Part shown: positions 23,201 through 53,241 of the stretch, one piece after another | How positions within the stretch are numbered: position 1 is the first letter of the stretch | How the letters are laid out: every line of letters starts with the position of its first letter | Source of the DNA: a virus | Taxonomy: Duplodnaviria; Caudoviricetes | Strand: one strand, 5' to 3' | Length of the DNA stretch: 64,000 nt | Virus record (IMG/VR): IMGVR_UViG_2061766007_000342 | Location: 128,001-192,000 of that record | Translations under genes and position numbers: made by a program | Notes under the pieces: model-generated | Seen by the model: the letters and a program-made list of their open reading frames with translations, nothing else | Databases searched by the model: none | What the model was told of the DNA's origin: nothing

Positions 23201-24016
23201 TTATCTGGTAGCAGCAGTAATCTGGCGTTTCGAAACCGAAACACCGCATTCCTTCATGATAACGCGAGCGATGTCACGTTCTCCCATGTTCTTGGCATAA
23301 CGGACGATCGCATAAACATCCTTGCTGTCAGGATTACGACGAGACTTCTTCACATTGAAGATCTGGTACATGGTGATGTCATCGATCTTCATCTGCAGTA
23401 CATTGTGAGTCTTAGCGATATCGTCCTTGCATGCACGTAACGTGGTATCGATAATGCACTTTAACTGTGCATCATAGTTCATTGCTTCCCAATCTACATC
23501 GGAGACATGAACCGGCTTCGGAAGCACACCGTCATAGGAGATAGAAACAGTAGCATTGGATTCTTTGTTGACAGAATCATTGAAAGCCTGGAGATCCGCC
23601 TCACTGAACTCACTATCTTCGGATACAACTACTGTCGGATCAACTAACGGAAGCTGCTCCTCCTTAACTGTTGCAGCTTTGGACGATTCATTCTTGTTCT
23701 TAGTCTTTTCAACAACAGGTTTCTCAACCGTCTTCGGCTTGGGAGTGACAATCTCAAACTTCTTCTCCATAACCGGAAGAGACTCGTTTGTGGGAGTCAC
23801 TCTGATGGGAGTATCACGTACATCTAACATACGGCACACCTTATTGAACTTGGGTGCAGAATCAGGATCCAACACCTCAAGTACAATACGGATCTTGTCC
23901 GTTGTCAGGCAGCTGTCGGTCAGCTGCTTTGAGAATTCTTCGACCATGGAATCGATCATATCGACCGTATCCATAATCTTTCCTACATGTTCGATACTTT
24001 CTTGCATCTTGTTCAT
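23201..24016 (-). CDS. Early hypothetical protein, paralog of 24040..25266
   Basis: Shares VLxVLDPD and ITxxxxFNVK modules with the neighbour; AGGAGG RBS. Confidence 0.75.
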   Translation of the reverse strand: MNKMQESIEHVGKIMDTVDMIDSMVEEFSKQLTDSCLTTDKIRIVLEVLDPDSAPKFNKVCRMLDVRDTPIRVTPTNESLPVMEKKFEIVTPKPKTVEKPVVEKTKNKNESSKAATVKEEQLPLVDPTVVVSEDSEFSEADLQAFNDSVNKESNATVSISYDGVLPKPVHVSDVDWEAMNYDAQLKCIIDTTLRACKDDIAKTHNVLQMKIDDITMYQIFNVKKSRRNPDSKDVYAIVRYAKNMGERDIARVIMKECGVSVSKRQITAATR

Positions 24017-24039
24017 TGTAATGAACCTCCTTCATATAT

Positions 24040-25266
24040 TTAAGAGACTGCAGTATTTGCCTGCAGTCTCTTATAATCATCATAGTCCTGATTGTACTGG
24101 ATGATCTCCTCACGAGTGATGGTAACACCAAGCTCCTTATTGAGAATATCCATAATCTCGGACGGCTTTACAATACCAGCAGAACGCTGGAGATTGACAC
24201 AAATAACACGGACGTCATTGTCAGTTACTGTTGCAATCTTCCGCTTTACCTTGAAACAATCCAAGATTGTAACAGGATATGGTGTCGCACGGAAGTGCAG
24301 AAATGTCTGTAACGTGTGTAGTTCCAAACGCTTCAAGACGTGAGCGATCTTGTCATCATCATCCGACATATCGGAAGGACGACGTACAACCGGTGAACCA
24401 CCTTCACGTGCAACACAACCATTCTTCCGTGCAAGCTTCCGAATGACATGGAACTGTGTTGCATCAATGATGATGTCACATTTGTCTCTCATGACACGAG
24501 AGATTGCTGGAATGTCATAGTTGTATGTCGGAGCGATCGAACGAACAACAACGGAAATGTCGTCCGTCTTGATGGGCTGACGCCGTGCTTCGGCATCATA
24601 CTTAACGTTGAACACATCAAAGATGGTTATGTCATGATTCTTTGCATTGACAACATCAAATGCACGACGGATGGAACCACGCTCGGAATCCAGTGTTCCC
24701 TTGATATATGCTGTTACATCAGCAGAAGGCATAACGATTCCAAGAATCGGTACATCTTCTTCTTTCTCTACTTCGGTTGTCTTTGTGACAGCACCTTCAA
24801 CGAGAATGAACTCACGTCCATCCTTGGTGAAGTAATTATCCGTAATATCAGTCCACTTGGACTTGTTGCGGATATTCGACAGCACATACTTGGTTACCTT
24901 GATACCATTAGCAGCACAATAATCCAATGTAGACTGGTAACCAAATCCACATTCTATCATTGCCCTACAGATGGCATCGATGTCATAAGTGTCGGCTACT
25001 GTTGTTTGCTGGATCCCATTGTCTTCGTTAGGTGTTGCTTCAACTGATGTAATGGTAGGGATATTGATTTCTGTGATGATTGATGTAACAGGCATCATCA
25101 GATTCGCGATGTTGTCCATTTTCGTAACAACATCAGGATCCAATACACTCAGTACGGATCTGACATCGTTGACGGTGATATCATTACCGTCTAACTCGGA
25201 AATAGCTTCGGTCATGTCATTGACCACCTGAGAGAAACGAGAGATTACTTCAAACTTTGCATTCAT
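24040..25266 (-). CDS. Early hypothetical protein with repeated helical (possibly HTH-like) modules
   Basis: 408 aa from ATG 25266 (AAGGAGG RBS); ITIFDVFNVK and VTILDCFKVK repeats. Confidence 0.75.
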   Translation of the reverse strand: MNAKFEVISRFSQVVNDMTEAISELDGNDITVNDVRSVLSVLDPDVVTKMDNIANLMMPVTSIITEINIPTITSVEATPNEDNGIQQTTVADTYDIDAICRAMIECGFGYQSTLDYCAANGIKVTKYVLSNIRNKSKWTDITDNYFTKDGREFILVEGAVTKTTEVEKEEDVPILGIVMPSADVTAYIKGTLDSERGSIRRAFDVVNAKNHDITIFDVFNVKYDAEARRQPIKTDDISVVVRSIAPTYNYDIPAISRVMRDKCDIIIDATQFHVIRKLARKNGCVAREGGSPVVRRPSDMSDDDDKIAHVLKRLELHTLQTFLHFRATPYPVTILDCFKVKRKIATVTDNDVRVICVNLQRSAGIVKPSEIMDILNKELGVTITREEIIQYNQDYDDYKRLQANTAVS

Positions 25267-25410
25267 TGCAAATTCCTCCTTAAGATGTTTTGATTTTGTT
25301 AAATAAACATTGATTATAAAACAGCCACACTGAGTGAATACACGATTGATGTATTGGTACTGCATCAATCTTGGTCGGGTTTCGGATGAGTTTCAATTAA
25401 TCAAATGCGA

Positions 25411-25464
25411 TTATTCACAAATGATGATACTACCATTAGTATCGGGGATGTAGATTTCTCCCAT
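25411..25464 (-). CDS. Leader mini-ORF (17 aa)
   Basis: GGAGGTG RBS followed by MGEIYIPDTNGSIIICE*. Confidence 0.5.
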   Translation of the reverse strand: MGEIYIPDTNGSIIICE

Positions 25465-25515
25465 GAGTTATCACCTCCAATGTAATATTTGCATTTTCAA
25501 CTTGGTGTGGTTGTT

Positions 25516-25530
25516 CATATTAATTATATA
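25516..25530 (-). promoter_or_regulatory. Early-type promoter motif
   Basis: TATATAATTAATATG, identical to 50819..50833. Confidence 0.65.
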
Positions 25531-38219: not shown

Positions 38220-41200
38220 TTATACAGGAGCGACATTACTCATGGTGATACGAAGATTTGGAATTGTGATCAATTTTGGATTATTGATTGGGACACATGT
38301 GTTTGTTTCAAATGTTATTTTATGTTCGATGAATGTTGTATATGGATACACATAAATATCACGTGTTGATCCATTAACATAATAAATTTTATCATCGAAT
38401 GGTATCAATAGTTTTGTAACATATTCAACAACGTAATTGTCACGATAGATCCGATTAAACATAATCGAATAATAATCCGAGTCAATTGTTGATGTAGTAA
38501 TTGGTCCATGATTATTAACAATTTTTCCGAGATTCACAATAATCGTTTGTGATGCAGTCCAACCATTGTTGTTGCCAGATGCCATTGATAAGAATAACCA
38601 ATAATTGTCATGTGAATTTACAATATAAGGACATTTGTAACATTGCATATTGCCGAGATCGTATATTGATTGTGTAATAATATTTGTTGCATCATTGCGT
38701 GTAAAAATAAAAATATGATTCCGATCATTATAAGACGTATTAGATGTCACTAAGATACCATCCTTATATGAGATTCTTTGATACACATGATTCATGCTAC
38801 TCATTGATCCGTAAACTTGATTCGAGCTCAGTGTATACGTAGTATATGGATTAAAATTATATATACCTTCACGACTGTTCCATTCTATAGCTCCAGCACC
38901 ATTAAATCCATATGGGATTGACTGAGTCCAGGTATATTGTCCATCGATGAACCATGTTTCTGGATATATTATTTGTTGTGTCGTATCCTTTGTGATGTCG
39001 TGTAATAATAGACTGTAATCATTACCGATTTTGCAAAGAATATATACAAATTCGTCAAATCCCATAAACATCGTTTGAGAAACATAATCATTTGGTAGAT
39101 CAAATTCGTGAGTAATAGTTTGTGTTGAAACATCATATATCGTCCAATGATCCAGATCATTACTCGGATCGAATATCAAACAATTTGTACCATACAATCT
39201 TCTCCATGTATTAGTCTTGAATGGTAGCAATGTTTCAGTATGGTTTTCAGTATCATAAATAACAACTTCTGAACCGGAAGATGTACTTCCTTTAAAACAT
39301 AAATATTTTCCAACAGATAATGCTGCATAATTGGAAAGTCTATTGTTTGCAGTTGCTTCTGTAAATGAAGAGATATTGATAAACTCAATACCAGGACCAA
39401 TATCAGCTGCGGGAAGTGTCATGTCAGCCATAAAAAATATCGGATGATTCTCATATATAGTGTTATATTGACGTCCATTTTGTTCGCCGTGAGCTGCCAC
39501 CATGAATATTTGTCGAGAATTTTCGGTATAAAATGGAATTGTTAAACCTGCCCAATTATTAAATGTCCAACCAGCAGTAACAAGTGTTTCAAAATTCGGT
39601 GTGAGAACTGTTTCTGGATGTTCATACATGTACCGTACTGTGTTAACATCAATAGCTTCGGATACTTTATGAATGATATGATTATACAACACAAACAAAT
39701 CATGTGTATCATCAATAATAAATGGAGGTACAGTCATGCCATCAGAAGAGTTAGTCATCTTACCATTTTCATCATCTGTATGTGTTGCATGTTTAGATGG
39801 GGTGAATTCATAATCAATTGCGCTCTTGTCTGAATCGGTGAATATTCTTGGTTTAAGAAATTTCCGAACATTCCCATCTTCATTGTCATATAATCTCAAA
39901 GTTGTCTTATCATATCCATAGCCACCATTCAGAAACCGATCTAAGATGTAATATTTCTTATTACGTTGGGACGTAGTTAATGTTTTTGTATTTTCAACTA
40001 ATTCCCAAGTTGAAACGTTCCACCATGTATTGGTACAATACATGGTATATCCACCTTCATCAAATCCAAGTACAGCTCTGTCTTGATAATGCGGGTTACA
40101 ATAGATATACGCATTACGTGCAACACCATCTGGATAGACAATATGTTCACAGCAACAGTACATCCAATTGAACATGTTATAATCATTATCTGGTTTATTC
40201 GTAAATGATTCGGCAATGTCATAATCATCTGTCAAGTAATTGTATCGATATACGGATTGGATATCCATATCCAATACGGGTAAAAAACCATATCCGTATT
40301 TTGCATCAGCATATCTGTTAAATCCCAATATATCATACAAATAATTGTTGTTCCACCAATCCGTCTTAATGAATGTTGTGACGCTTTCTTTGGTTGGCAT
40401 TTTATATGGTTTTACAAATAAAAAGTCGGTATCTTGTAAAAGATACGCATTTTGTGAAGGTCTGTATTCATTATACCCAAGCGAATCAATCACGAAATTT
40501 GCAAATTGGTGATATTTTGAATCTATTAAATACGTAACAACATTATTTGTTTCATATGTTCCCGTATGATTAGTTTCATCGTAAGTGACCGTGAAATTCA
40601 CTAGATTAGTTTCATAAGCAGAGGGTTGATCAAGAGTATATGGTACAATGTATGCGCGCCCTAAGTTTGCATCTCTTGAACTGTAACCTGCTTCCATTGT
40701 ATAAGATCGATGTAATGATTTATATAAGTTCGGTGTTTGATTGAACTGTGCAGAACTGCCATTATAGTAATTCATTCCAAACAAATGTTTTATATCAATC
40801 GCACCATAAGAACCGTTACTCCACAAACTTTCGAAGAATGAAGAATGACATGCCATTGTCAAATATAACGTAATGGTTGTTTTTTCATTGATACGTTTCG
40901 TGAACGTTGTTTCATTACCATTAATATCATAAATCTTAGAATGAGAGAACAATTTTGTCGGTGCAGTACCCCAGCCAACTTCGTTAGCTGTAAAATTTGA
41001 TGTAATCTGATTGATATTATAATCATATACAGATTGATGTATGAGTATCGTTTTCACATAATATCCGGTATCAGAATGGTATACACCGCCATAATCATCA
41101 TTATGACAAGCATTTGAAAGAATACTGGTTGTGAAATTATTAAACATCGAATTATTCGTAATTGACGGTTGATGACTTGTATCGATACCATTACCAATGT

Positions 41201-44946: not shown

Positions 44947-47900
44947 TTATTCATCTCCTTTATATAACTTAAAACCATATGCGAATTGATAATTCTCTTT
45001 GGATACGTCAATATGTGTGACATGATTTTCATCATATTCTTCAACTTCATATAGTTGATAGCCATCCGAAATGAGTGCACATGTATCTGTCATTTCCACA
45101 TACGCATCATCATATTCAAAGCTTGATTCAGATTCCGTGTTATATGAGATTTGATATTGTGCATACTTATAACCAATATTGTATTTATCATTTCCCATGT
45201 AATTCAAATATAATGCAGAAACTCCACCGGGATAAAAATAATATGAACGATATGCACACGGCGAACACATTTTTGCACGTGAAGCCTCATGTGCATTTGT
45301 ATTCCACGCCAAATACATCATAGAATACATCTCTCGTTTTAAATTAAACACATACAACCATTGGGAGTTGTAACGTGGAACAATGACTGCACCATTGCAA
45401 TAGGTTGGACGAATGACTTTGTTGTTATTACCCCATTCCACATAATACGAATTCGCAATCGTATATGGTGTTTTGTCTTCAATTACAACCAGATGCGTTG
45501 GGGTAATTACATAGAACTTTCCATCACCATAACAACATCCAAATTCTTCGCCATAATCATTCTGATTGATCGTTGTCCAAGTTTTTGATTGTTTGTTATA
45601 AATGTTAATATGACAATAATTGGAATCTTTATCAACGAGCAATATGGATTTATCCGATACGGCGATATCCCACCAGTTGACACCTGGAGAATTGTCCGAC
45701 AACACGGTATATTGATTTGATTTGATATTAAATAAATACATATCATGTTTTGCGGAATTGTCACCGGTTACGATGGATGTATATGTATCATCGTACCATT
45801 CAATTCGACCATTGATGTATGCATGTCCGTTGTCGGGAACAATACGCCCAGATACTTGACCTGATACACGATTCACAATAAAAATTCGGTCATTTATATG
45901 CGATGATGTGAAGTAAAATTTATTTTCATCCATTAAGAATCCGGATACAGCATAGCCAGTATTTGAACCAGCCAATGTGCTCCATGTTACTTGCCATTCA
46001 AGATGTACCTGATCTGTCAATGCCGATGGATCAAATGATTTGATTTGTAAATACCATGTGCCATTGATATAACATGAAGATGCTGTATAGAACTTACGAC
46101 GGAATTCAATCGAACATGCTGTTGTAATCGATGAAGTTCCGTTATCATACAAATCCAAAACATATTCCGATCGAAATCCATAAGAACCATTAATGCGTAA
46201 TGGTAACAAATATTGTGCGGTTTTAATATGTCCAGTTTCATCACGATATTCATCCATTTCACCACGCGGTTTTACTAACGTGCCATAACACGGATTGTTT
46301 GGTAAACAATCGGTTGATGGAGTAACATCAGACTTTGAAAAATATCGATATGATGCTTGTTGGCCGGGTGAACCGGTAAGTTCCACATGATACAGCTTGA
46401 ATATCTGATCACCGGGTTGATGTTTATAAACATCAAATATGACACGATTCTTCTGTGTGGTTTGATCTTTGATAACATGTACTTTTGGTGAAAAAACCGT
46501 GTCATCATATGGATCCGAATCAATGTAGATGTTGTTAATGGTTGATGAATTGTTCGTGTCGGTTGAAATTCTGACATGATGAGGTGTTGTCAATAAACCG
46601 ATAGATGTGGTTTCTTCGTTCTCATCACACATGTACAATTGATATTCATCCATTAAGTTTGTATCACCCATGAACATTGAATCGGGATATGCATCAAACA
46701 TATCTTTGGTTAATTGTGATGGTTGTGGTCGGATCAATCTCCATCGTGATATAGACTGATCATAATACTTATAACCATCATTATCATGTGCAATGATCGG
46801 TGTTAATAATTCAATGACTGTTATTTTTGCAAACGGTTGTTGATCTTCTCTGGTATTACCTCCTTGAACAAGTGATGTTTCTGATAAACGATATTTATCA
46901 TCAACCAAATATCCATCAGGTTTATATGAGTCTTCTGTTAATACATATCCAGAACCACCTGTTCCCGGATAATCATATACTGCTCCTGATCCACCATACC
47001 AACCACCACCTCCAGTTCCAGGGTAATAATTACCATTGACTGTAGAAGAGCCTCCTTGACCAAAACTACCAGCTACACTTGGTTGTATGTCACTTGGTGA
47101 TTCAGTTTGTGTGCCAGGTCCATTATTATAATATCTAACACTCGGTGAACCATCCCCACCAACTGCACCACCACCATTACCACCATAACCTTGCTGGTTA
47201 GTCGATCGATATCCGTTTGAACCAGCACCACCCGCAACAATAAATCGGTGATACATTGTATCACCATCTATTCTCATATCAGTTGCACCACCACCGTGAG
47301 ATATTCTATAAAACGGCGATGTTGGTGAACCACCACCATTGTATCCACCATATGGATACATTTTTAATGCATAATCCGAGGTATTTGTAATAAATTTGCC
47401 GTATCCTGCAGATTGCATTCCTCGACCACCAACATTTACAACAATTTCTTTATTCTCATATGATCTTAATTCACCACATGCATAACCACCCTTTGGTGTA
47501 TACTCATCATTATTATGACACCATGTGAACACATTACCACCATAACATTCCAGTTTATATGTGCCTGCTGGTAATGTTATATGTTCCATATTTGCAGTTG
47601 AATAAAATTCTATAGTATCACCAGCATTACATTTTGAAACAAGTTTTGCAATAATAACTTCACCTGAATCAGATTGACCAGAACCCATATACACGTTTGT
47701 CATGTAATATTTTGAATCCGGATCATACCCGTCTGGTTTGTATGATGTTGATGTTAATACATATCCAGACCCACCCGAACCAGATGATGAGTGCGCATTA
47801 TTATCCGTCGCATTTGTTAATTGTGTAAAACCACCATACCAACCACCACCAGCTCCACCACTACCTGGCCCATATGATACATTATTACTTGATGATATTC

Positions 47901-49328: not shown

Positions 49329-49733
49329 TTATTCTTTTGGTTGATATGGTGTATCGGAAGCACTGTAAATTGCAACCAATGTATCATCTGGAATGACATT
49401 AAGCTGCGCTTGTGTGGGTTCACCATTGAATGCAATGATCTGAGATTCAAAACCAACGAGCTTTAAATTACCATTTCCACAATCTGTTTCAACCGTAACG
49501 GAACGATATTCACGAATGACACGATAAACGGTTTCTGTATTGGTATCTACCAATAATGTATTTCGTTCATACACCGTATCTGATTCATAATCTTTGATGG
49601 AAGCATTACCTGTGCCTCCACCACCTTGACCAATTTCCAACTGTTCAAGCTTGGTTGCTAATTCGTTAATCAATGCTTGCTGACGTGATATCACATCATA
49701 CAATGATTGAAAGATGGAATCTTCCATTGCCAT
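49329..49733 (-). CDS. Putative virion protein
   Basis: 134 aa, poly-Gly hinge, in the late operon. Confidence 0.65.
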   Translation of the reverse strand: MAMEDSIFQSLYDVISRQQALINELATKLEQLEIGQGGGGTGNASIKDYESDTVYERNTLLVDTNTETVYRVIREYRSVTVETDCGNGNLKLVGFESQIIAFNGEPTQAQLNVIPDDTLVAIYSASDTPYQPKE

Positions 49734-49735
49734 TT

Positions 49736-49951
49736 TTATTCACCCCCATTGTTGTCCGCTTGTTGTTCCAACCAATAATCCGCACGTGCGTTGATTCGTT
49801 GTAAATCAGCATTGATATTACCGAGTAACGAAATGGTTGGTTGCAACTCTTGCGATAGTTTGTTCAATACAAATGCCCAAGTAATGACATTCGCAACATC
49901 TCCATCTGGTAATTCAAATGATAATGGTTTTGTATCATCAAATTGTGCCAT
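49736..49951 (-). CDS. Small putative virion protein
   Basis: 71 aa from ATG 49951, AAGGAG RBS. Confidence 0.65.
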   Translation of the reverse strand: MAQFDDTKPLSFELPDGDVANVITWAFVLNKLSQELQPTISLLGNINADLQRINARADYWLEQQADNNGGE

Positions 49952-49992
49952 ATAAAAAACAGCTCCTTTCGTTATTATTATAGATGAACCAT

Positions 49993-50007
49993 TGTTAAGA
50001 AAGCGTT
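49993..50007 (-). promoter_or_regulatory. Late-type promoter motif
   Basis: AACG-CTTTCT-TAACA. Confidence 0.55.
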
Positions 50008-50017
50008 CAATATAAAA

Positions 50018-50047
50018 AAACAACCCCGCGATTAAGCGGGGTTGTTT
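50018..50047 (-). terminator. Intrinsic terminator
   Basis: 12-bp stem followed by a U-tract on the minus strand. Confidence 0.8.
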
Positions 50048-50057
50048 GGTGGATTAC

Positions 50058-50264
50058 TTAGTCATTACCTCCTTTCATCCGAGAATAGGTAAGCTCGGAA
50101 TACTGTACTGACCACATAGTAGCCAGAAGCATTACACCCGTGGCGATGACCAAACCCGGAGCCGGGATGTACTCCGGATCACCAAGCTTGAACATCACCC
50201 ACCCGAAGGTGGGGATGTCCAGCGTGAGCACCAGCCGCGCTAGTGCTCTTCTCAGCTTAGCCAT
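50058..50264 (-). CDS. Small membrane protein
   Basis: 68 aa from ATG 50264, AAGGAGGTG RBS, two hydrophobic segments. Confidence 0.7.
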   Translation of the reverse strand: MAKLRRALARLVLTLDIPTFGWVMFKLGDPEYIPAPGLVIATGVMLLATMWSVQYSELTYSRMKGGND

Positions 50265-50541
50265 TGTCACCCACCTCCTTTGCGAGCTCTGCGAGCAGAG
50301 TCTTGGCGGCAGCCTTGGACAGCTTGTAATAGCCGCCCGGGCACCACTCATCATTGTAGTGGACCCTAGAGATGAGGTTGCAGCCATTACAGAGGAGACC
50401 GGTGTACGGGTAGTAAGACCCGTCACCGTCAACACGATATTCGTGATACAGCCTCATACGGGTGTTGCACCTCGGGCAATGGAGCATGGTCTTACGGCCG
50501 ATCTCGTGTTTGTTTGCGATATCAATGAGATTATAAATCAT
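50257..50541 (-). CDS. Zn-ribbon protein
   Basis: 94 aa from ATG 50541, AAGGGAG RBS, CPRC...CNGC. Confidence 0.7.
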   Translation of the reverse strand: MIYNLIDIANKHEIGRKTMLHCPRCNTRMRLYHEYRVDGDGSYYPYTGLLCNGCNLISRVHYNDEWCPGGYYKLSKAAAKTLLAELAKEVGDNG

Positions 50542-50621
50542 GGTGATCTCCCTTTCTGTGGCCCGTTGTGGGTGGTACCACGTTACCCATAAAATATAAG
50601 TTGGGATAATACCCATTGGTA

Positions 50622-50818
50622 GTATACAGAGAATCCAATATTATAAACACCTTCTATTATTGATGATTAAATCATTGGTCGATTGCGATTGCTTTCAAAA
50701 CCATGGTTGTGCATGGTTTTGCAATCTCAGCCAACATCGTCAAGATGCTTGGCATTTGATTGGTAATCTTCATCGATATCACCTCACTCCCGTGAAGAGA
50801 ATGTGATTCTCTGTATAC
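50622..50818 (-). ncRNA. Structured leader or small RNA enclosing a 33-aa ORF (50672..50773)
   Basis: Perfect 14-bp terminal stem, two internal hairpins, begins immediately after an early-type promoter. Confidence 0.55.
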
Positions 50819-50833
50819 CATATTAATTATATA
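50819..50833 (-). promoter_or_regulatory. Early-type promoter motif
   Basis: TATATAATTAATATG. Confidence 0.65.
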
Positions 50834-50869
50834 TATTTCAAATTTCAAAATAAATACATATATTTAATG

Positions 50870-51115
50870 TGATTTCAAATGCATGATGATGCAACATATC
50901 ACATGTCAGTGATCATTCAATTTCATCGTTGTCAGTTTCAAGACATTAGGTATTTGGAAAGTGTGAATGTTTATTGATGAATATGTATGCAATTGAAATC
51001 GGATTATTGGTGCCACATTACAAAAAATAATGTGGCACACGGAGCCCATAACGAAGGGTATTATTTAACCTTCTTCATATATAGATGGTACACCGGGGCA
51101 TATGCCCCGGTGATA
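50870..51115 (+). ncRNA. Candidate small RNA
   Basis: Early-like motif at 50857..50871, perfect 11-bp hairpin at 51010..51038, terminal hairpin at 51091..51112, no credible long ORF. Confidence 0.4.
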
Positions 51116-51130
51116 CCCATTCCATTGTTG

Positions 51131-51880
51131 TTATGTCACAAACCACGTTTTCAAGACACCACCGACATTGATGGGTCGTTTCAAGTAATCTTCACAATAT
51201 GATTCACCGGTTGTGATATCAGTGTAAATGATACCATGATCCGAGAACACATGAGAACCATACTCATCTTGGAACTGTTGAATGGTACATTGTTTACCAT
51301 CCTCCGACGGTTCAAAGGTACATGCATCACAACGACCATATCCCGGAATGCCGTTCATGTTGTGGCAATGCTGACACGTCCGGCATACATTTGTTTCCGT
51401 TTCACGGCCATCCAATATGTCCGTAATAACCCCCAGTATCATTGCGTCCAATTCATTATCAAACGCATTATACATTGCTTGGAAACATTCACGGATGTTA
51501 TCAGTGTTATATTCACCCGCATCGATGATGGTCAACATACGAGTGAACAATTCTTTCAAAAAGTATTTGGATTGTTCCGGATTCAATTCATGAACCCGTT
51601 TTGCAATTGACGGGTCATTGATCAATGATACATACCGTTTGATCATCAACCAAGAATACTTGCCGGCTTTGTTCAACTTCTGGTCCATGTATACCAGTTG
51701 TTTGTGGGACATATGAATCGTTGTCGGTGACGTAATCACGATCGAGTCATCGTTCCGATCAACAATGATTGATGCATGTGCCATCGGACTTCCCGACATG
51801 CGAATATTCACATTACCAAGCTTTTCGAAATCATTCAATGCTTTGATGAATGATTGTCCCAATAATTCATGCTTTGACAT
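51131..51880 (-). CDS. Hypothetical protein with Cys-rich C-terminus
   Basis: 249 aa, GGGAG RBS, CRTCQHC...CDAC. Confidence 0.7.
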   Translation of the reverse strand: MSKHELLGQSFIKALNDFEKLGNVNIRMSGSPMAHASIIVDRNDDSIVITSPTTIHMSHKQLVYMDQKLNKAGKYSWLMIKRYVSLINDPSIAKRVHELNPEQSKYFLKELFTRMLTIIDAGEYNTDNIRECFQAMYNAFDNELDAMILGVITDILDGRETETNVCRTCQHCHNMNGIPGYGRCDACTFEPSEDGKQCTIQQFQDEYGSHVFSDHGIIYTDITTGESYCEDYLKRPINVGGVLKTWFVT

Positions 51881-51900
51881 AATTTAACACACTCCCAATA

Positions 51901-53241
51901 TTATACACGACAATATTTCACGATTTGTTCCGCCGTATCATTCATCATCAACCGTGTTTGCAGTTGTGCAAATGATATGTTGGGTTTGATATCACCGATA
52001 TCATTCACCGTGTATCCATGATCCGGATAATACCGATCCATGAATTCAATCAATGTTTCTGCACATACATACGGAATTTCCACACATACATCACAACGTC
52101 CCGGGCGGATCAATGCCGGATCCAGAATTTCTTTGTGATTAGTCGTCATCACATACACGATGTTGGTTGGCGATCCCACACCATCCAATGTGTTCAAGAT
52201 CGTTGCCAATCCAACGGGTTCGTTATCATGACCAGCCGCATCACCGTGATATCGTTTCTTACGGGCATTCATATTGGCAATACCCGAATCGATATCTTCG
52301 ATGCACAATACGCGGTATTTGTTTTTCGCCGGTGGATCCAACCACACTTGATTGTATACGATCTCGTTGATGTCTTCAATCAAATCTCCGGACATGACCC
52401 AATACAAGGCATTGATTTCATTGGCGATTGCTTGGGCGATTGACGATTTGCCGGTTGACGGAGCACCATACAACAACACACCGAAATGATTGGGAATATT
52501 CGTATTTTCATAAAACTCGTAATTGTTGATGTATTTCATGATCGGTTCCATGATTTGTTTCCGCAAGCTGTCGGGGATAAATACATCATCAAATGACCGA
52601 AGCTTCTTGTTGTTCATCATTAATACTTCATTGCGTTCACGGATGACTCTGATGCGTCCATGTAAATAAATCCGTTTGTCAATCATTCGCATGGATTCTA
52701 AATACAAATGATGAATGAACTGTTTCAATCCCCGTTTACATTCATCTGTGTTCAGTGTCATCAGCTTCACAACGGGTCGTTCACCCGGCAATTCCACACC
52801 GTCGTTATTCCCGACAATCAATGCAATCATCACACCATTCCATCGAATGCACCGGAAGTATCGTTCCATATGATTCCAATAATAATGTTTATTGTATATC
52901 ACCGGCTCCAAGTCATCCAATGCATTGATTTCAATGGTTTCTTCATAATTGGCGAAGTATCGAAACAATGCATCTTCCAAACGACCAAGTTCATTATCAA
53001 TAGAAACCACGTACAATACTTCACTCTTTAACCATGCAATTCCAGCATCAACCACACCCCCAATCAATTTGTTTGTTAAAACACTCTCGACACTGTCACA
53101 CATACGTTGTTTCACACGCTTTGCCAACATACGATTTTTCATCCGTTCAATGTCTCCAGGCAACACTCTTTTTTCTTTTTTACCATTTGAATTACGATTC
53201 ATCTCATATACAACTCCATTCAAAATTATTAAATGATTCAT
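51901..53241 (-). CDS. BCS1-like AAA+ ATPase
   Basis: GVLLYGAPSTGKSS, IEDID, LNTLDG, MTTNH..LDPALIRPGRCD; start codon uncertain. Confidence 0.88.
   Translation of the reverse strand: MNHLIILNGVVYEMNRNSNGKKEKRVLPGDIERMKNRMLAKRVKQRMCDSVESVLTNKLIGGVVDAGIAWLKSEVLYVVSIDNELGRLEDALFRYFANYEETIEINALDDLEPVIYNKHYYWNHMERYFRCIRWNGVMIALIVGNNDGVELPGERPVVKLMTLNTDECKRGLKQFIHHLYLESMRMIDKRIYLHGRIRVIRERNEVLMMNNKKLRSFDDVFIPDSLRKQIMEPIMKYINNYEFYENTNIPNHFGVLLYGAPSTGKSSIAQAIANEINALYWVMSGDLIEDINEIVYNQVWLDPPAKNKYRVLCIEDIDSGIANMNARKKRYHGDAAGHDNEPVGLATILNTLDGVGSPTNIVYVMTTNHKEILDPALIRPGRCDVCVEIPYVCAETLIEFMDRYYPDHGYTVNDIGDIKPNISFAQLQTRLMMNDTAEQIVKYCRV

What the first reader, a model, noticed from the sequence alone, without database searches (positions are those of the whole stretch)
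50600..50835. Early RNA of about 200 nt closed by a perfect 14-bp end-to-end stem and hiding a 33-aa ORF
Seen: directly after the early motif, 50805..50818 is perfectly complementary to 50622..50635. Inside are a GAGGTG RBS and MKITNQMPSILTMLAEIAKPCTTMVLKAIAIDQ*. There are two hairpins (GCCAAGCAUC/GAUGUUGGC and GAUUGC-AAAACCAUG/CAUGGUUUU-GCAAUC) and a further stem (UAUCGAUGA/UCAUCAAUA) that would bury the AUG. Known: 5'-3' long-range pairing around a small ORF is typical of type I toxin mRNAs, and rods of about 190 nt with a bubble are typical of 6S RNA. Inference: an undescribed phage regulatory RNA, a translation-gated leader for the downstream Zn-ribbon and membrane genes, or a host-RNAP decoy.
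Basis: partly seen in the sequence, partly recalled or inferred. Interest (0 to 1): 0.7.

Follow-up and report, generated by a model that had tools for sequence, protein, structure and literature searches.

The report
Clamped mini-ORF leader of phage early mRNA
The first 200 bases of an early messenger RNA of an uncultured giant phage fold into a compact domain, closed by a helix that pairs the RNA's very 5' end with a site 185 bases downstream and enclosing a 33-codon reading frame; it is a second, unrelated type of an undescribed "clamped mini-gene" layout that recurs in this phage group.

Summary
On the minus strand, 50818-50805 pairs perfectly (14 bp) with 50635-50622. The 200-nt stretch folds far better than shuffles (z -7.1). 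The SD-led 33-codon ORF and two of the three named hairpins are real.

The "early motif" is an AR9-type virion-RNA-polymerase promoter, AAATATATATAAT-6N-G. It puts the start at G50819, so the helix begins at +1/+2.

Three diverged relatives keep the fold: 22 substitution calls break only one pair, with one compensatory change and G-U pairs that fit only the minus strand. With three sequences this support is modest.

The genome holds five perfect inverted repeats of at least 14 bp at this spacing, against 0.7 expected. The other four clamp a conserved 17-residue micropeptide gene, a family this scan already reported on other DNA. A sister phage carries that type at the syntenic site. Our element shares the layout, but sequence and covariance models reject membership.

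There is no terminator after the 3' arm, so it reads as the 5' module of the Zn-ribbon/membrane-protein early mRNA, not a proven free 200-nt RNA. The most likely role is 5'-end protection and insulation, possibly with RNase III excision. The type I toxin and 6S readings are not supported. No RNA-seq could be consulted.

The parts
50820..50853 (-). Early (virion RNA polymerase type) promoter motif TTATTTTGAAATTTGAAATATATATAATTAATAT; the core AAATATATATAAT is at 50838-50826, followed by a 6-nt spacer
   Evidence: The 13-nt core TATATATAATTAA has 11 copies (at most one mismatch) in the 258-kb genome and about 17 in the sister phage G001. It matches the experimentally mapped AR9 early consensus AAATATATATTAT-(6N)-G+1 with one mismatch (PMC5312081).
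50819..50819 (-). Inferred transcription start (G+1)
   Evidence: This is the conserved G seven nt after TATAAT in the genome's full-motif copies. The position is inferred by analogy with the mapped AR9 starts; it was not measured here.
50805..50818 (-). 5' arm of the closing helix (RNA positions +2 to +15); G+1 can add a G-U pair with U50621
   Evidence: In the relatives U-A becomes C-G at one pair and A-U becomes G-U at another.
50785..50803 (-). Hairpin 2 (CAUUCUC / GGGAGUG), directly inside the 5' arm. Its 5' strand AUUCUCU is the same heptamer as in the 3' arm, so AGAGAAU of the 5' arm can pair locally before the 3' arm is made.
   Evidence: It is in the MFE of all three variants. One U-G to U-A change preserves pairing. 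A local 7-bp hairpin is predicted for the nascent 28-184 nt RNA and is replaced by the clamp in the 200-nt RNA, a gain of about 20 kcal/mol.
50762..50785 (-). Shine-Dalgarno GAGGUGAU (50785-50778) and start codon (50773), within a small hairpin that pairs GGUGAU with codons 3-4 (AUUACC)
   Evidence: In L048, three substitutions in codons 3-4 all keep the pairing (G-C to G-U, U-A to U-G, G-U to G-C). This hairpin is less constant between the single-sequence folds.
50672..50773 (-). 33-codon ORF MKITNQMPSILTMLAEIAKPCTTMVLKAIAIDQ*
   Evidence: The frame stays open in the relatives, at 34 codons. pN/pS is about 0.38 from very few changes and is not significant. No Pfam or PHROG match. The only true relatives among 1.8 billion representatives are the same element.
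50730..50753 (-). Hairpin H1 (GCCAAGCAUC-loop-GAUGUUGGC), inside the ORF
   Evidence: In L025 three substitutions all fall in the 5-nt loop and none in the 9-bp stem.
50684..50729 (-). Hairpin H2 (GAUUGC-AAAACCAUG / CAUGGUUUU-GCAAUC), inside the ORF
   Evidence: The upper 9 bp are invariant. The lower stem has one broken pair in L025 (U-A to C-A), and two further changes fall in the internal loop and a bulge.
50636..50677 (-). AU-rich 3' sub-domain between the stop codon and the 3' arm; its fold is not conserved
   Evidence: Helices 7-8 are only 57-73% paired across the relatives. Two offsetting 3-nt indels keep the total length at 200 nt.
50621..50635 (-). 3' arm of the closing helix (RNA +185 to +199)
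50257..50541 (-). Downstream gene 1: 94-aa Zn-ribbon-like protein (CPRC...CNGC), 52% G+C
   Evidence: ORF and RBS. Homologues of 87% and 63% identity. Gene order in the relatives. G+C.
50058..50264 (-). Downstream gene 2: 68-aa small hydrophobic protein, 54% G+C, overlapping gene 1 by 8 nt
   Evidence: A homologue follows the syntenic promoter in G001.
50018..50047 (-). Intrinsic terminator (12-bp stem plus T run): the first terminator after the promoter, so the likely end of the early unit

Best explanation
Window 50819-50620 (minus strand) is the 5'-terminal 200-nt module of an early mRNA. The transcript is made from an AR9-type virion-RNA-polymerase promoter. It continues through the Zn-ribbon and small membrane-protein genes to the terminator at 50047-50018.

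The module is a 'clamped mini-cistron'. Nucleotides +1 to +15 pair with +185 to +199, so the RNA's 5' end is buried in a 15-bp helix. The enclosed 170 nt form an autonomous multi-hairpin domain. That domain carries a strong SD and a 33-codon ORF.

Shown here:
- the helix and most inner hairpins are kept by selection on the minus-strand RNA;
- the same layout recurs around unrelated mini-ORFs in this phage group.

Inferred, by analogy only: the clamp works at RNA level in two ways.
- It denies 5'-end-dependent ribonucleases a single-stranded 5' end. Together with ribosome loading on the strong SD, it would act like the 5' stabilisers of Bacillus mRNAs (aprE, ermC, SP82 early RNA).
- It insulates the mini-cistron as a self-folding unit that can be exchanged between promoters.

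The 33-residue peptide is probably made but is weakly constrained. The RNA fold, not the peptide, carries most of the detectable selection.
For: Helix and fold.

Start site. The promoter matches the mapped AR9 early consensus, which puts +1 at G50819, one base before the arm.

Conservation of the window's own MFE structure in relatives:
- L025: 12 substitutions, 1 broken pair, 4.5 expected, P=0.022.
- L048: 10 substitutions, 0 broken pairs, 3.5 expected, P=0.010.
- One compensatory U-A to C-G change occurs in the clamp.
- Five of the six one-sided changes in paired columns keep pairing through G-U.
- The opposite strand would carry 4 mismatches.

Recurrence. Five perfect inverted repeats of at least 14 bp with 128-174-nt gaps, against 0.7 expected, each enclosing an SD-led mini-ORF after an early promoter. 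In the 17-aa family, 10 of 14 clamp pairs show compensatory changes.

Synteny. Sister phage G001 has a clamped 20-codon module at the same site, between the homologue of the upstream 249-aa gene and the membrane-protein gene.

Early leaders of this clade are more structured than random genome 60-mers (mean -12.5 against -9.6 kcal/mol, P=0.0014), and about half pair G+1.

No conserved terminator lies between the 3' arm and the Zn-ribbon gene.

The nearest isolates are AR9-like phages of Bacillus, Staphylococcus and Listeria. In such hosts 5' stem-loops and ribosome binding are documented mRNA stabilisers (review PMC7509114).
Against: Only three informative sequences exist. The tool's column-shuffle control is not significant (174 of 500 shuffles reach the observed values). 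The two substitution tests share six substitutions.

The stabiliser role is analogy only. The host is unknown.

In three G001 copies of the other family, the clamp starts 40-50 nt after a separate 5' hairpin. Clamps therefore do something beyond hiding the 5' end.

AR9 itself has short, unstructured early leaders and no clamps, so this is not a general requirement of such polymerases.

One pair of H2 is broken in L025, and the 3' sub-domain is not conserved.
Confidence: 0.5

Rival explanations
1. The clamp is a processing site. Host RNase III, or another double-strand-specific nuclease, cuts the 15-bp helix. This releases a discrete mini-messenger or non-coding RNA of about 170-200 nt with both ends paired, so it resists exonucleases. 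It also leaves the Zn-ribbon mRNA with a new 5' end, as at T7 early mRNA sites and rRNA processing stems.
For: Perfect 13-22-bp helices enclose every mini-ORF module. Two modules stand in tandem between two terminators with no downstream gene (G000 47.4-47.8 kb), so modules can be products in their own right. In G001 the clamp is separate from the 5'-terminal hairpin, and 5'-end protection does not explain that.
Against: Fifteen base pairs is short for RNase III. The phage encodes no RNase III domain. No RNA ends are available. In this element the 5' arm starts at +2, so a cut would remove almost nothing on that side.
Confidence: 0.2
2. It is a translation-gated or co-transcriptional switch that controls the downstream genes. 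AGAGAAU of the 5' arm first pairs with the neighbouring AUUCUCU. It is later captured by the identical heptamer in the 3' arm. Translation of the mini-ORF, or the timing of refolding, sets read-through or translation of the Zn-ribbon gene.
For: The AUUCUCU heptamer is duplicated, at +17 to +23 and +186 to +192. The predicted nascent-RNA fold with the local hairpin is replaced by clamp plus hairpin 2. The SD sits in a hairpin kept through three substitutions.
Against: A ribosome on the mini-ORF cannot reach either arm: the 5' arm ends 31 nt before the AUG and the 3' arm starts 37 nt after the stop. No pairing between the module and the Zn-ribbon RBS was predicted in the 320-nt fold. The U-rich stretch after the 3' arm is not conserved. 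The clamp is about 20 kcal/mol more stable than the alternative, so at equilibrium it is not a two-state switch.
Confidence: 0.12
3. It is a DNA-level element: two inverted copies of a protein-binding site (an operator over the start site plus a partner 183 bp away), or the terminal inverted repeats of a small mobile insertion.
For: One arm overlaps the predicted start site. The module is absent from the syntenic site of G001 and from the Zn-ribbon homologue in L028, which has a short leader, so it behaves as an insertion or replacement.
Against: Changes in the relatives keep pairing through G-U, which is meaningless for DNA sites and works on one strand only. In the ten clamped modules of the other family the arm sequences differ between most copies but are always complementary, which fits no shared protein site or transposase end. 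No target-site duplication is visible. The element is single-copy.
Confidence: 0.05
4. It is a type I toxin-antitoxin mRNA or a 6S-like RNA-polymerase decoy.
For: A small ORF sits inside an RNA with 5'-3' pairing, and the size is about 200 nt. A weak sigma-70-like match on the plus strand at 50616-50644 could in principle drive an antisense RNA.
Against: The peptide is not membrane-like. The long-range helix does not hold the SD. No Rfam type I or 6S match at E up to 10. The fold is multi-branched. Phages of this kind transcribe with their own polymerases from very different promoters.
Confidence: 0.04

Closest known systems
Clamped 17-residue micropeptide modules (M-x-E-I/V-Y-I-P-D-T-x-G-S-I-I-I-C-E) of the same phage group. 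Not in the literature as far as I could find; already noted by this scan (e1-5483095, e1-5649854).
   Same: An early promoter is followed by a perfect long-range helix that encloses an SD-led mini-ORF and hairpins, about 190-200 nt in all. It stands in front of unrelated genes. One copy sits at the syntenic site in the sister phage.
   Different: There is no sequence or covariance-model similarity: nhmmer gives no hit at E up to 100, and the CM scores 74 bits on the window's true family copy at 25.5 kb but only a generic 9-bit hairpin hit here. The ORF is 33 codons and unrelated. The peptide is weakly constrained (pN/pS about 0.38, against 0.10 for the family). The element is single-copy.
5' mRNA stabilisers of Bacillus subtilis: the aprE leader, the ermC leader peptide region, gsiB, and SP82 phage early RNA (reviewed in PMC7509114)
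   Same: A structure at or within a few nt of the 5' end, plus a strong ribosome-binding site or short ORF near the 5' end of a transcript. One example is in a phage early RNA of a Firmicute host.
   Different: Known stabilisers use a local 5' hairpin or a bound ribosome. Here the partner of the 5' end lies 185 nt downstream and encloses the whole mini-cistron. The effect on half-life is untested.
RNase III processing helices: T7 early mRNA sites, and the long-range stems that enclose 16S and 23S rRNA (from my own knowledge, not checked in a paper here)
   Same: A double-stranded helix delimits a unit within a longer primary transcript. The rRNA stems are long-range and enclose the product.
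   Different: The helix is only 15 bp, without the usual internal loop. No cleavage data exist, and the phage has no RNase III gene.
PeSL cassettes of T4-type phages (PMC2839356, PMC4122927)
   Same: A repeated early-promoter motif with adjoining stem-loops flanks small, variable genes. Related phages differ by swaps at these units. Here G000 and G001 carry different modules and gene content behind the same promoter at the same site.
   Different: PeSLs are composite terminator/promoter DNA repeats thought to act in recombination. They are not a transcribed helix enclosing an ORF. Here the conserved feature is RNA pairing, not repeat sequence.
AR9 early promoters and leaders (PMC5312081)
   Same: The promoter consensus and spacing to G+1 are nearly identical.
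   Different: The 31 AR9 early leaders examined are short and unstructured (mean MFE of the first 60 nt is -4.7 kcal/mol), and none has a clamp.

Membership tests
Type I toxin mRNA | Small hydrophobic peptide with a membrane-spanning helix | tested here: not met
   Maximum Kyte-Doolittle mean over 19 residues is 1.29. K, E, K, P, K and D are spread through the peptide.
Type I toxin mRNA | Long-range 5'-3' pairing that sequesters the SD or start | tested here: not met
   The clamp pairs +1 to +15 with +185 to +199. The SD is at +35 to +42 and lies in a separate local hairpin.
Type I toxin mRNA | Cognate antisense RNA | not testable with these tools
   There is only a 9/12 sigma-70-like match on the plus strand. 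No transcript data.
6S RNA (RF00013) | Match to the covariance model; a rod with a large central bubble | tested here: not met
   No 6S hit at E up to 10. The predicted and consensus folds are a five-hairpin multi-branch domain.
Clamped 17-aa micropeptide module of this phage group | Similarity to the family's sequence profile and covariance model, and the conserved peptide | tested here: not met
   nhmmer finds all 5 genome copies (E 1e-25 to 1e-51) but not this locus at E up to 100. CM R1 scores 74 bits at window 25340-25508 and gives only a generic 9-bit hairpin hit here. The peptide is unrelated.
Clamped 17-aa micropeptide module of this phage group | Layout: early promoter, long-range perfect helix, SD-led mini-ORF and hairpins inside, about 200 nt | tested here: met
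5' mRNA stabiliser (aprE / ermC / SP82 type) | Base-paired 5' terminus and a strong ribosome-binding site near the 5' end | tested here: met
   G+1 to +15 are paired in every fold of the 200-nt RNA. The SD GAGGUGAU lies at +35 to +42. The start site is inferred, not measured.
5' mRNA stabiliser (aprE / ermC / SP82 type) | Lengthens the half-life of the downstream mRNA | not testable with these tools
   Needs decay measurements.
RNase III processing site | Double-stranded helix of about two turns that the enzyme cleaves | tested here: inconclusive
   The helix is 15 bp, 16 with a terminal U-A that lies upstream of +1. No phage RNase III. Cleavage is not testable.
PeSL-type mobile promoter cassette | Repeated early promoter unit at the borders of gene-content differences between close relatives | tested here: met
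   The same promoter at the same site precedes different modules and gene sets in G000 and G001. The Zn-ribbon homologue in L028 has its own promoter and a short leader.

The most novel reading that the evidence does not exclude
Clamped mini-messengers may be a general, undescribed class of early-gene module in this clade of AR9-like gut jumbo phages. In this class, sequence-unrelated mini-cistrons (17-aa type, 33-aa type) are each enclosed by a long-range helix that is the functional unit. For example, the module could be excised as an RNA with both ends paired that resists exonucleases and acts as a very stable mini-mRNA or as an RNA in its own right. The modules would be interchangeable behind virion-polymerase promoters. 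This element would then be the first evidence that the clamp, not the peptide, defines the class.
Probability: 0.3. Interest if true: 0.7.

Novelty: new variant of a known kind. Interest (0 to 1): 0.5.

Why it matters
Almost nothing is known about post-transcriptional control of the first transcripts that virion-packaged RNA polymerases of jumbo phages make. This is a concrete, testable RNA device. It has an exact predicted start, a 15-bp 5'-3' clamp and an enclosed mini-cistron. It occurs in at least two unrelated versions in one phage group and is absent from the model phage AR9.

If the clamp stabilises or releases the module, that would explain how these phages secure expression of tiny early genes and of newly acquired GC-rich genes. 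It would also offer a compact insulating and stabilising part for expression in Firmicutes. If it does nothing measurable, the recurrent covarying helices remain unexplained.

Tried and rejected
- Rfam (4227 families, E up to 10) on 49500-52000, and on three family copies: nothing in or near the element.
- Megablast and blastn against 50,697 phage records: no true match, for the element or for the 17-aa modules.
- IMG/VR scan for the inner hairpin: none. A scan for relatives of the neighbouring AAA ATPase: none.
- The metagenome scan found one near-identical copy (L059), which adds one loop change only.
- The 33-aa peptide:
  - too short for the word-index protein search;
  - an exhaustive HMMER search gave only the same element (P0003) and two spurious tandem-repeat proteins;
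  - no Pfam or PHROG match;
  - Atlas recognition was low (1101) with no usable neighbour.
- Column-shuffle covariation control with 3 sequences: not significant, 174/500.
- Energy cannot tell the strand: the plus strand folds almost as well (-65.2 kcal/mol, z -6.4). The strand call rests on G-U pairs.
- Terminator after the 3' arm: rejected because the U-rich tract is not conserved.
- Phage-encoded RNase III (PF00636, PF14622): absent.
- Homology of this element with the 17-aa family: rejected by HMM and CM.
- Generality in AR9: rejected.
- No structure or complex prediction was run, because none would bear on the question.

Full report
SETTING

The window is bases 128001-192000 of a 257.9-kb IMG/VR virus record, about 96% complete. 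It encodes split multisubunit RNA polymerase subunits, a family-B DNA polymerase and topoisomerase II.

Its nearest isolated relatives, at about 30% identity on an RNA polymerase subunit, are AR9-like jumbo phages of Bacillus, Staphylococcus and Listeria. A Firmicute host is therefore likely but not known.

All genes around the finding are on the minus strand.

THE OBSERVATION

- The stem. 50818-50805 and 50635-50622 are perfectly complementary over 14 bp, with 169 nt between them.
- The fold. The 205-nt RNA folds at -69.1 kcal/mol against -41.1 +/- 3.9 for shuffles (z -7.1). The clamp accounts for about 19 kcal/mol of this.
- The ORF and hairpins. The 33-codon ORF (50773-50672), its SD GAGGUGAU (50785-50778), and hairpins H1 (50753-50730) and H2 (50729-50684) are as described.
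- The third stem. It takes two uncompensated hits in one relative.

THE PROMOTER AND THE START

The 'early motif' is a 34-nt AT-rich block. Its 13-nt core occurs 11 times in this genome and about 17 times in a sister phage.

Its core plus spacer, AAATATATATAAT-TAATAT-G, is one mismatch from the experimentally mapped early promoter of AR9, AAATATATATTAT-(6N)-G+1. That promoter is read by the injected virion polymerase (PMC5312081; PMC7598289).

By that analogy the RNA starts at G50819. The 5' arm is then +2 to +15, and G+1 can pair with U50621. This start is inferred, not measured.

EVIDENCE FROM RELATIVES

- Where they came from. The downstream Zn-ribbon protein led to contigs of close relatives. 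An exhaustive peptide search led to another, and a metagenome scan to a near-identical one.
- How many are informative. This gives three informative variants, each exactly 200 nt from +1 to the end of the 3' arm.
- Changes in the clamp. One pair changes on both sides (U-A to C-G). Another goes A-U to G-U.
- Changes in the inner hairpins.
  - Hairpin 2 gains a Watson-Crick pair from U-G.
  - Three changes in codons 3-4 of L048 all keep the pairing with the SD.
  - Three changes in H1 of L025 all fall in the loop.
  - One pair of H2 is lost.
- Substitution test. I took the fold predicted from the window alone and placed the observed number of substitutions at random, keeping the observed transition bias.
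  - L025 should break 4.5 pairs and breaks 1 (P=0.022).
  - L048 should break 3.5 pairs and breaks 0 (P=0.010).
- Limits of that test. The two comparisons share six substitutions. The tool's own column-shuffle control is not significant with three rows (174/500). Direct covariation support is therefore real but modest.
- Strand. The opposite strand would carry four mismatches in each sequence. Folding energy cannot tell the strands apart, so the G-U pairs assign the structure to the minus-strand RNA.

RECURRENCE

- The count. A census of perfect inverted repeats of at least 14 bp at 30-300 nt spacing finds five in the genome, against 0.7 expected. All five have gaps of 128-174 nt.
- What the other four are. 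Each sits after an early-type promoter ending in TATG. Each encloses a strong SD and a 13-17-codon ORF. Three of the four encode MGE(I/V)YIPDTxGSIIICE, and the fourth is a degenerate 13-codon version (MGEIITGEEIFLG).
- A copy in this window. A fifth family copy, with a 10/11 arm, lies at 25516-25320.
- The family in the sister phage. G001 has five more copies.
- The family peptide is under strong purifying selection (pN/pS 0.10).
- The family clamp covaries. Its arms differ in sequence between most copies yet always pair. In six aligned copies, 10 of 14 clamp pairs show compensatory changes.
- Earlier report. This scan has already reported the family on other DNA as a 'multi-copy clamped micropeptide gene' (e1-5483095). 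I reached it independently and agree.

RELATION OF OUR ELEMENT TO THAT FAMILY

The layout is the same but the sequence is unrelated.

- A profile HMM of the family finds all five genome copies and nothing at our locus at E up to 100.
- A covariance model scores 74 bits on the window's 25.5-kb copy. At our locus it gives only a generic 9-bit hairpin hit.
- Our element is single-copy.

The syntenic comparison is informative. In G001 the homologue of the upstream 249-aa gene (64% identity) is followed by the same terminator-spacer-promoter arrangement. After that come a clamped 20-codon module of the family, the small membrane protein, a terminator and the next shared gene.

In our phage the same promoter is followed by the 33-codon module, an extra Zn-ribbon gene and the membrane protein.

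A more distant Zn-ribbon homologue (L028) has its own promoter and a short plain leader.

The two downstream genes are 52-54% G+C in a 38% genome, while the module itself is 37.5%. Modules and genes are therefore exchanged behind a constant promoter.

WHAT IT IS NOT

- No Rfam family matches, including 6S, tmRNA and type I systems.
- The fold is multi-branched, not a 6S rod.
- The peptide has no membrane-spanning stretch and no relatives beyond the element itself.
- No conserved terminator follows the 3' arm. The sequence therefore gives no reason to call it a free 200-nt RNA.
- AR9, with the same promoter type, has short unstructured leaders and no clamps. The device is specific to this clade.

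MECHANISM

Shown: a helix that buries the predicted 5' end and closes a self-contained domain with an SD-led ORF, kept by selection on one strand, in a layout that recurs with unrelated contents.

Inferred roles:
- Protection. The most economical role is protection of the early mRNA from 5'-end-dependent decay. Ribosome loading on the strong SD would add to it, as in the Bacillus 5' stabilisers, one of which is a phage early RNA (PMC7509114).
- Clade context. Early leaders of this clade are in general more structured than random genome segments, and about half pair G+1.
- Insulation. The domain would fold autonomously, which would allow modules to be swapped.

Reasons for caution:
- In three G001 copies the clamp is distinct from a separate 5'-terminal hairpin.
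- Two family modules stand alone in tandem between terminators.
- Both points suggest the clamp also marks a unit that may be cut out, for example by host RNase III. The phage has none of its own.
- A kinetic refolding step is predicted. The local hairpin AGAGAAU/AUUCUCU is replaced once the identical heptamer of the 3' arm is made. But a ribosome on the mini-ORF cannot reach either arm, and no pairing with the downstream RBS is predicted. A translation-gated switch is therefore less likely.

Coding status of the 33-codon ORF is open:
- it has a strong SD and stays open in all variants;
- pN/pS is about 0.38 from ten changes, which is not significant;
- the substitution pattern follows the RNA pairs better than the codons.

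LIMITS

- The host is unknown.
- Only three informative homologues exist.

Noticed in passing
window 25320-25516 (-); also G000 23902-24059, 39122-39327, 47396-47582 and 47608-47801 (+); G001 loci L049-L053: A multi-copy family of clamped modules of about 190-200 nt behind early promoters. Most copies encode a 16-20-residue peptide (M-x-E-I/V-Y-I-P-D-T-x-G-S-I-I-I-C-E); one copy is degenerate. pN/pS is 0.10. The clamp arms differ between most copies but always pair, and 10 of 14 pairs are compensatory. There is no Rfam or phage-database match. This scan already reported the family on other DNA (e1-5483095).
   Followed up: yes
G000 47396-47801 (locus L056:144-557): Two of these modules stand in tandem, 25 nt apart, between two intrinsic terminators with no downstream gene. 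The modules can therefore be the product of a transcription unit rather than a leader.
   Followed up: partly
window 50058-50541 (-): The Zn-ribbon and small membrane-protein genes are 52-54% G+C in a 38% G+C genome. The leader module is 37.5%. The Zn-ribbon gene is missing from the syntenic site of the sister phage. This suggests a recently acquired gene pair placed behind a resident promoter and module.
   Followed up: partly
G000 31678, 65127 and 145640 (the last is window about 17640, minus strand): Three other early leaders share a hairpin, GGGAG-loop-CUCCC with the shared loop 3' end UUUCUAUG (identical, GGGAGUUUUCUAUGCUCCC, in two of the three). It lies just before the SD of the first gene in two leaders and about 40 nt upstream of the SD in the third. 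This is a second recurrent leader module.
   Followed up: no
window 50860-51130: The 270-nt spacer upstream of the promoter is about 95% identical in the relatives. It holds two perfect 11-bp hairpins (51091-51112, 51010-51038) that look like terminators of the upstream 249-aa gene. Another note reads part of it as a divergent small transcription unit (e1-5649855); I did not test that.
   Followed up: no
window 50572-50581: A perfect 10-bp palindrome, GTGGTACCAC, lies in the 78-nt stretch between the 3' arm and the Zn-ribbon start, in the loop of a conserved 5-bp hairpin (UGGGU/ACCCA). L025 has one change inside the palindrome.
   Followed up: no
AR9 genome KU878088.1 (loci L061-L090): The 31 AR9 early leaders examined start G-A/U-A-like, as here. 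They are short (typically 25-45 nt to the start codon) and almost unstructured. The structured early leaders are therefore a trait of the uncultured gut clade, not of AR9-type transcription.
   Followed up: yes
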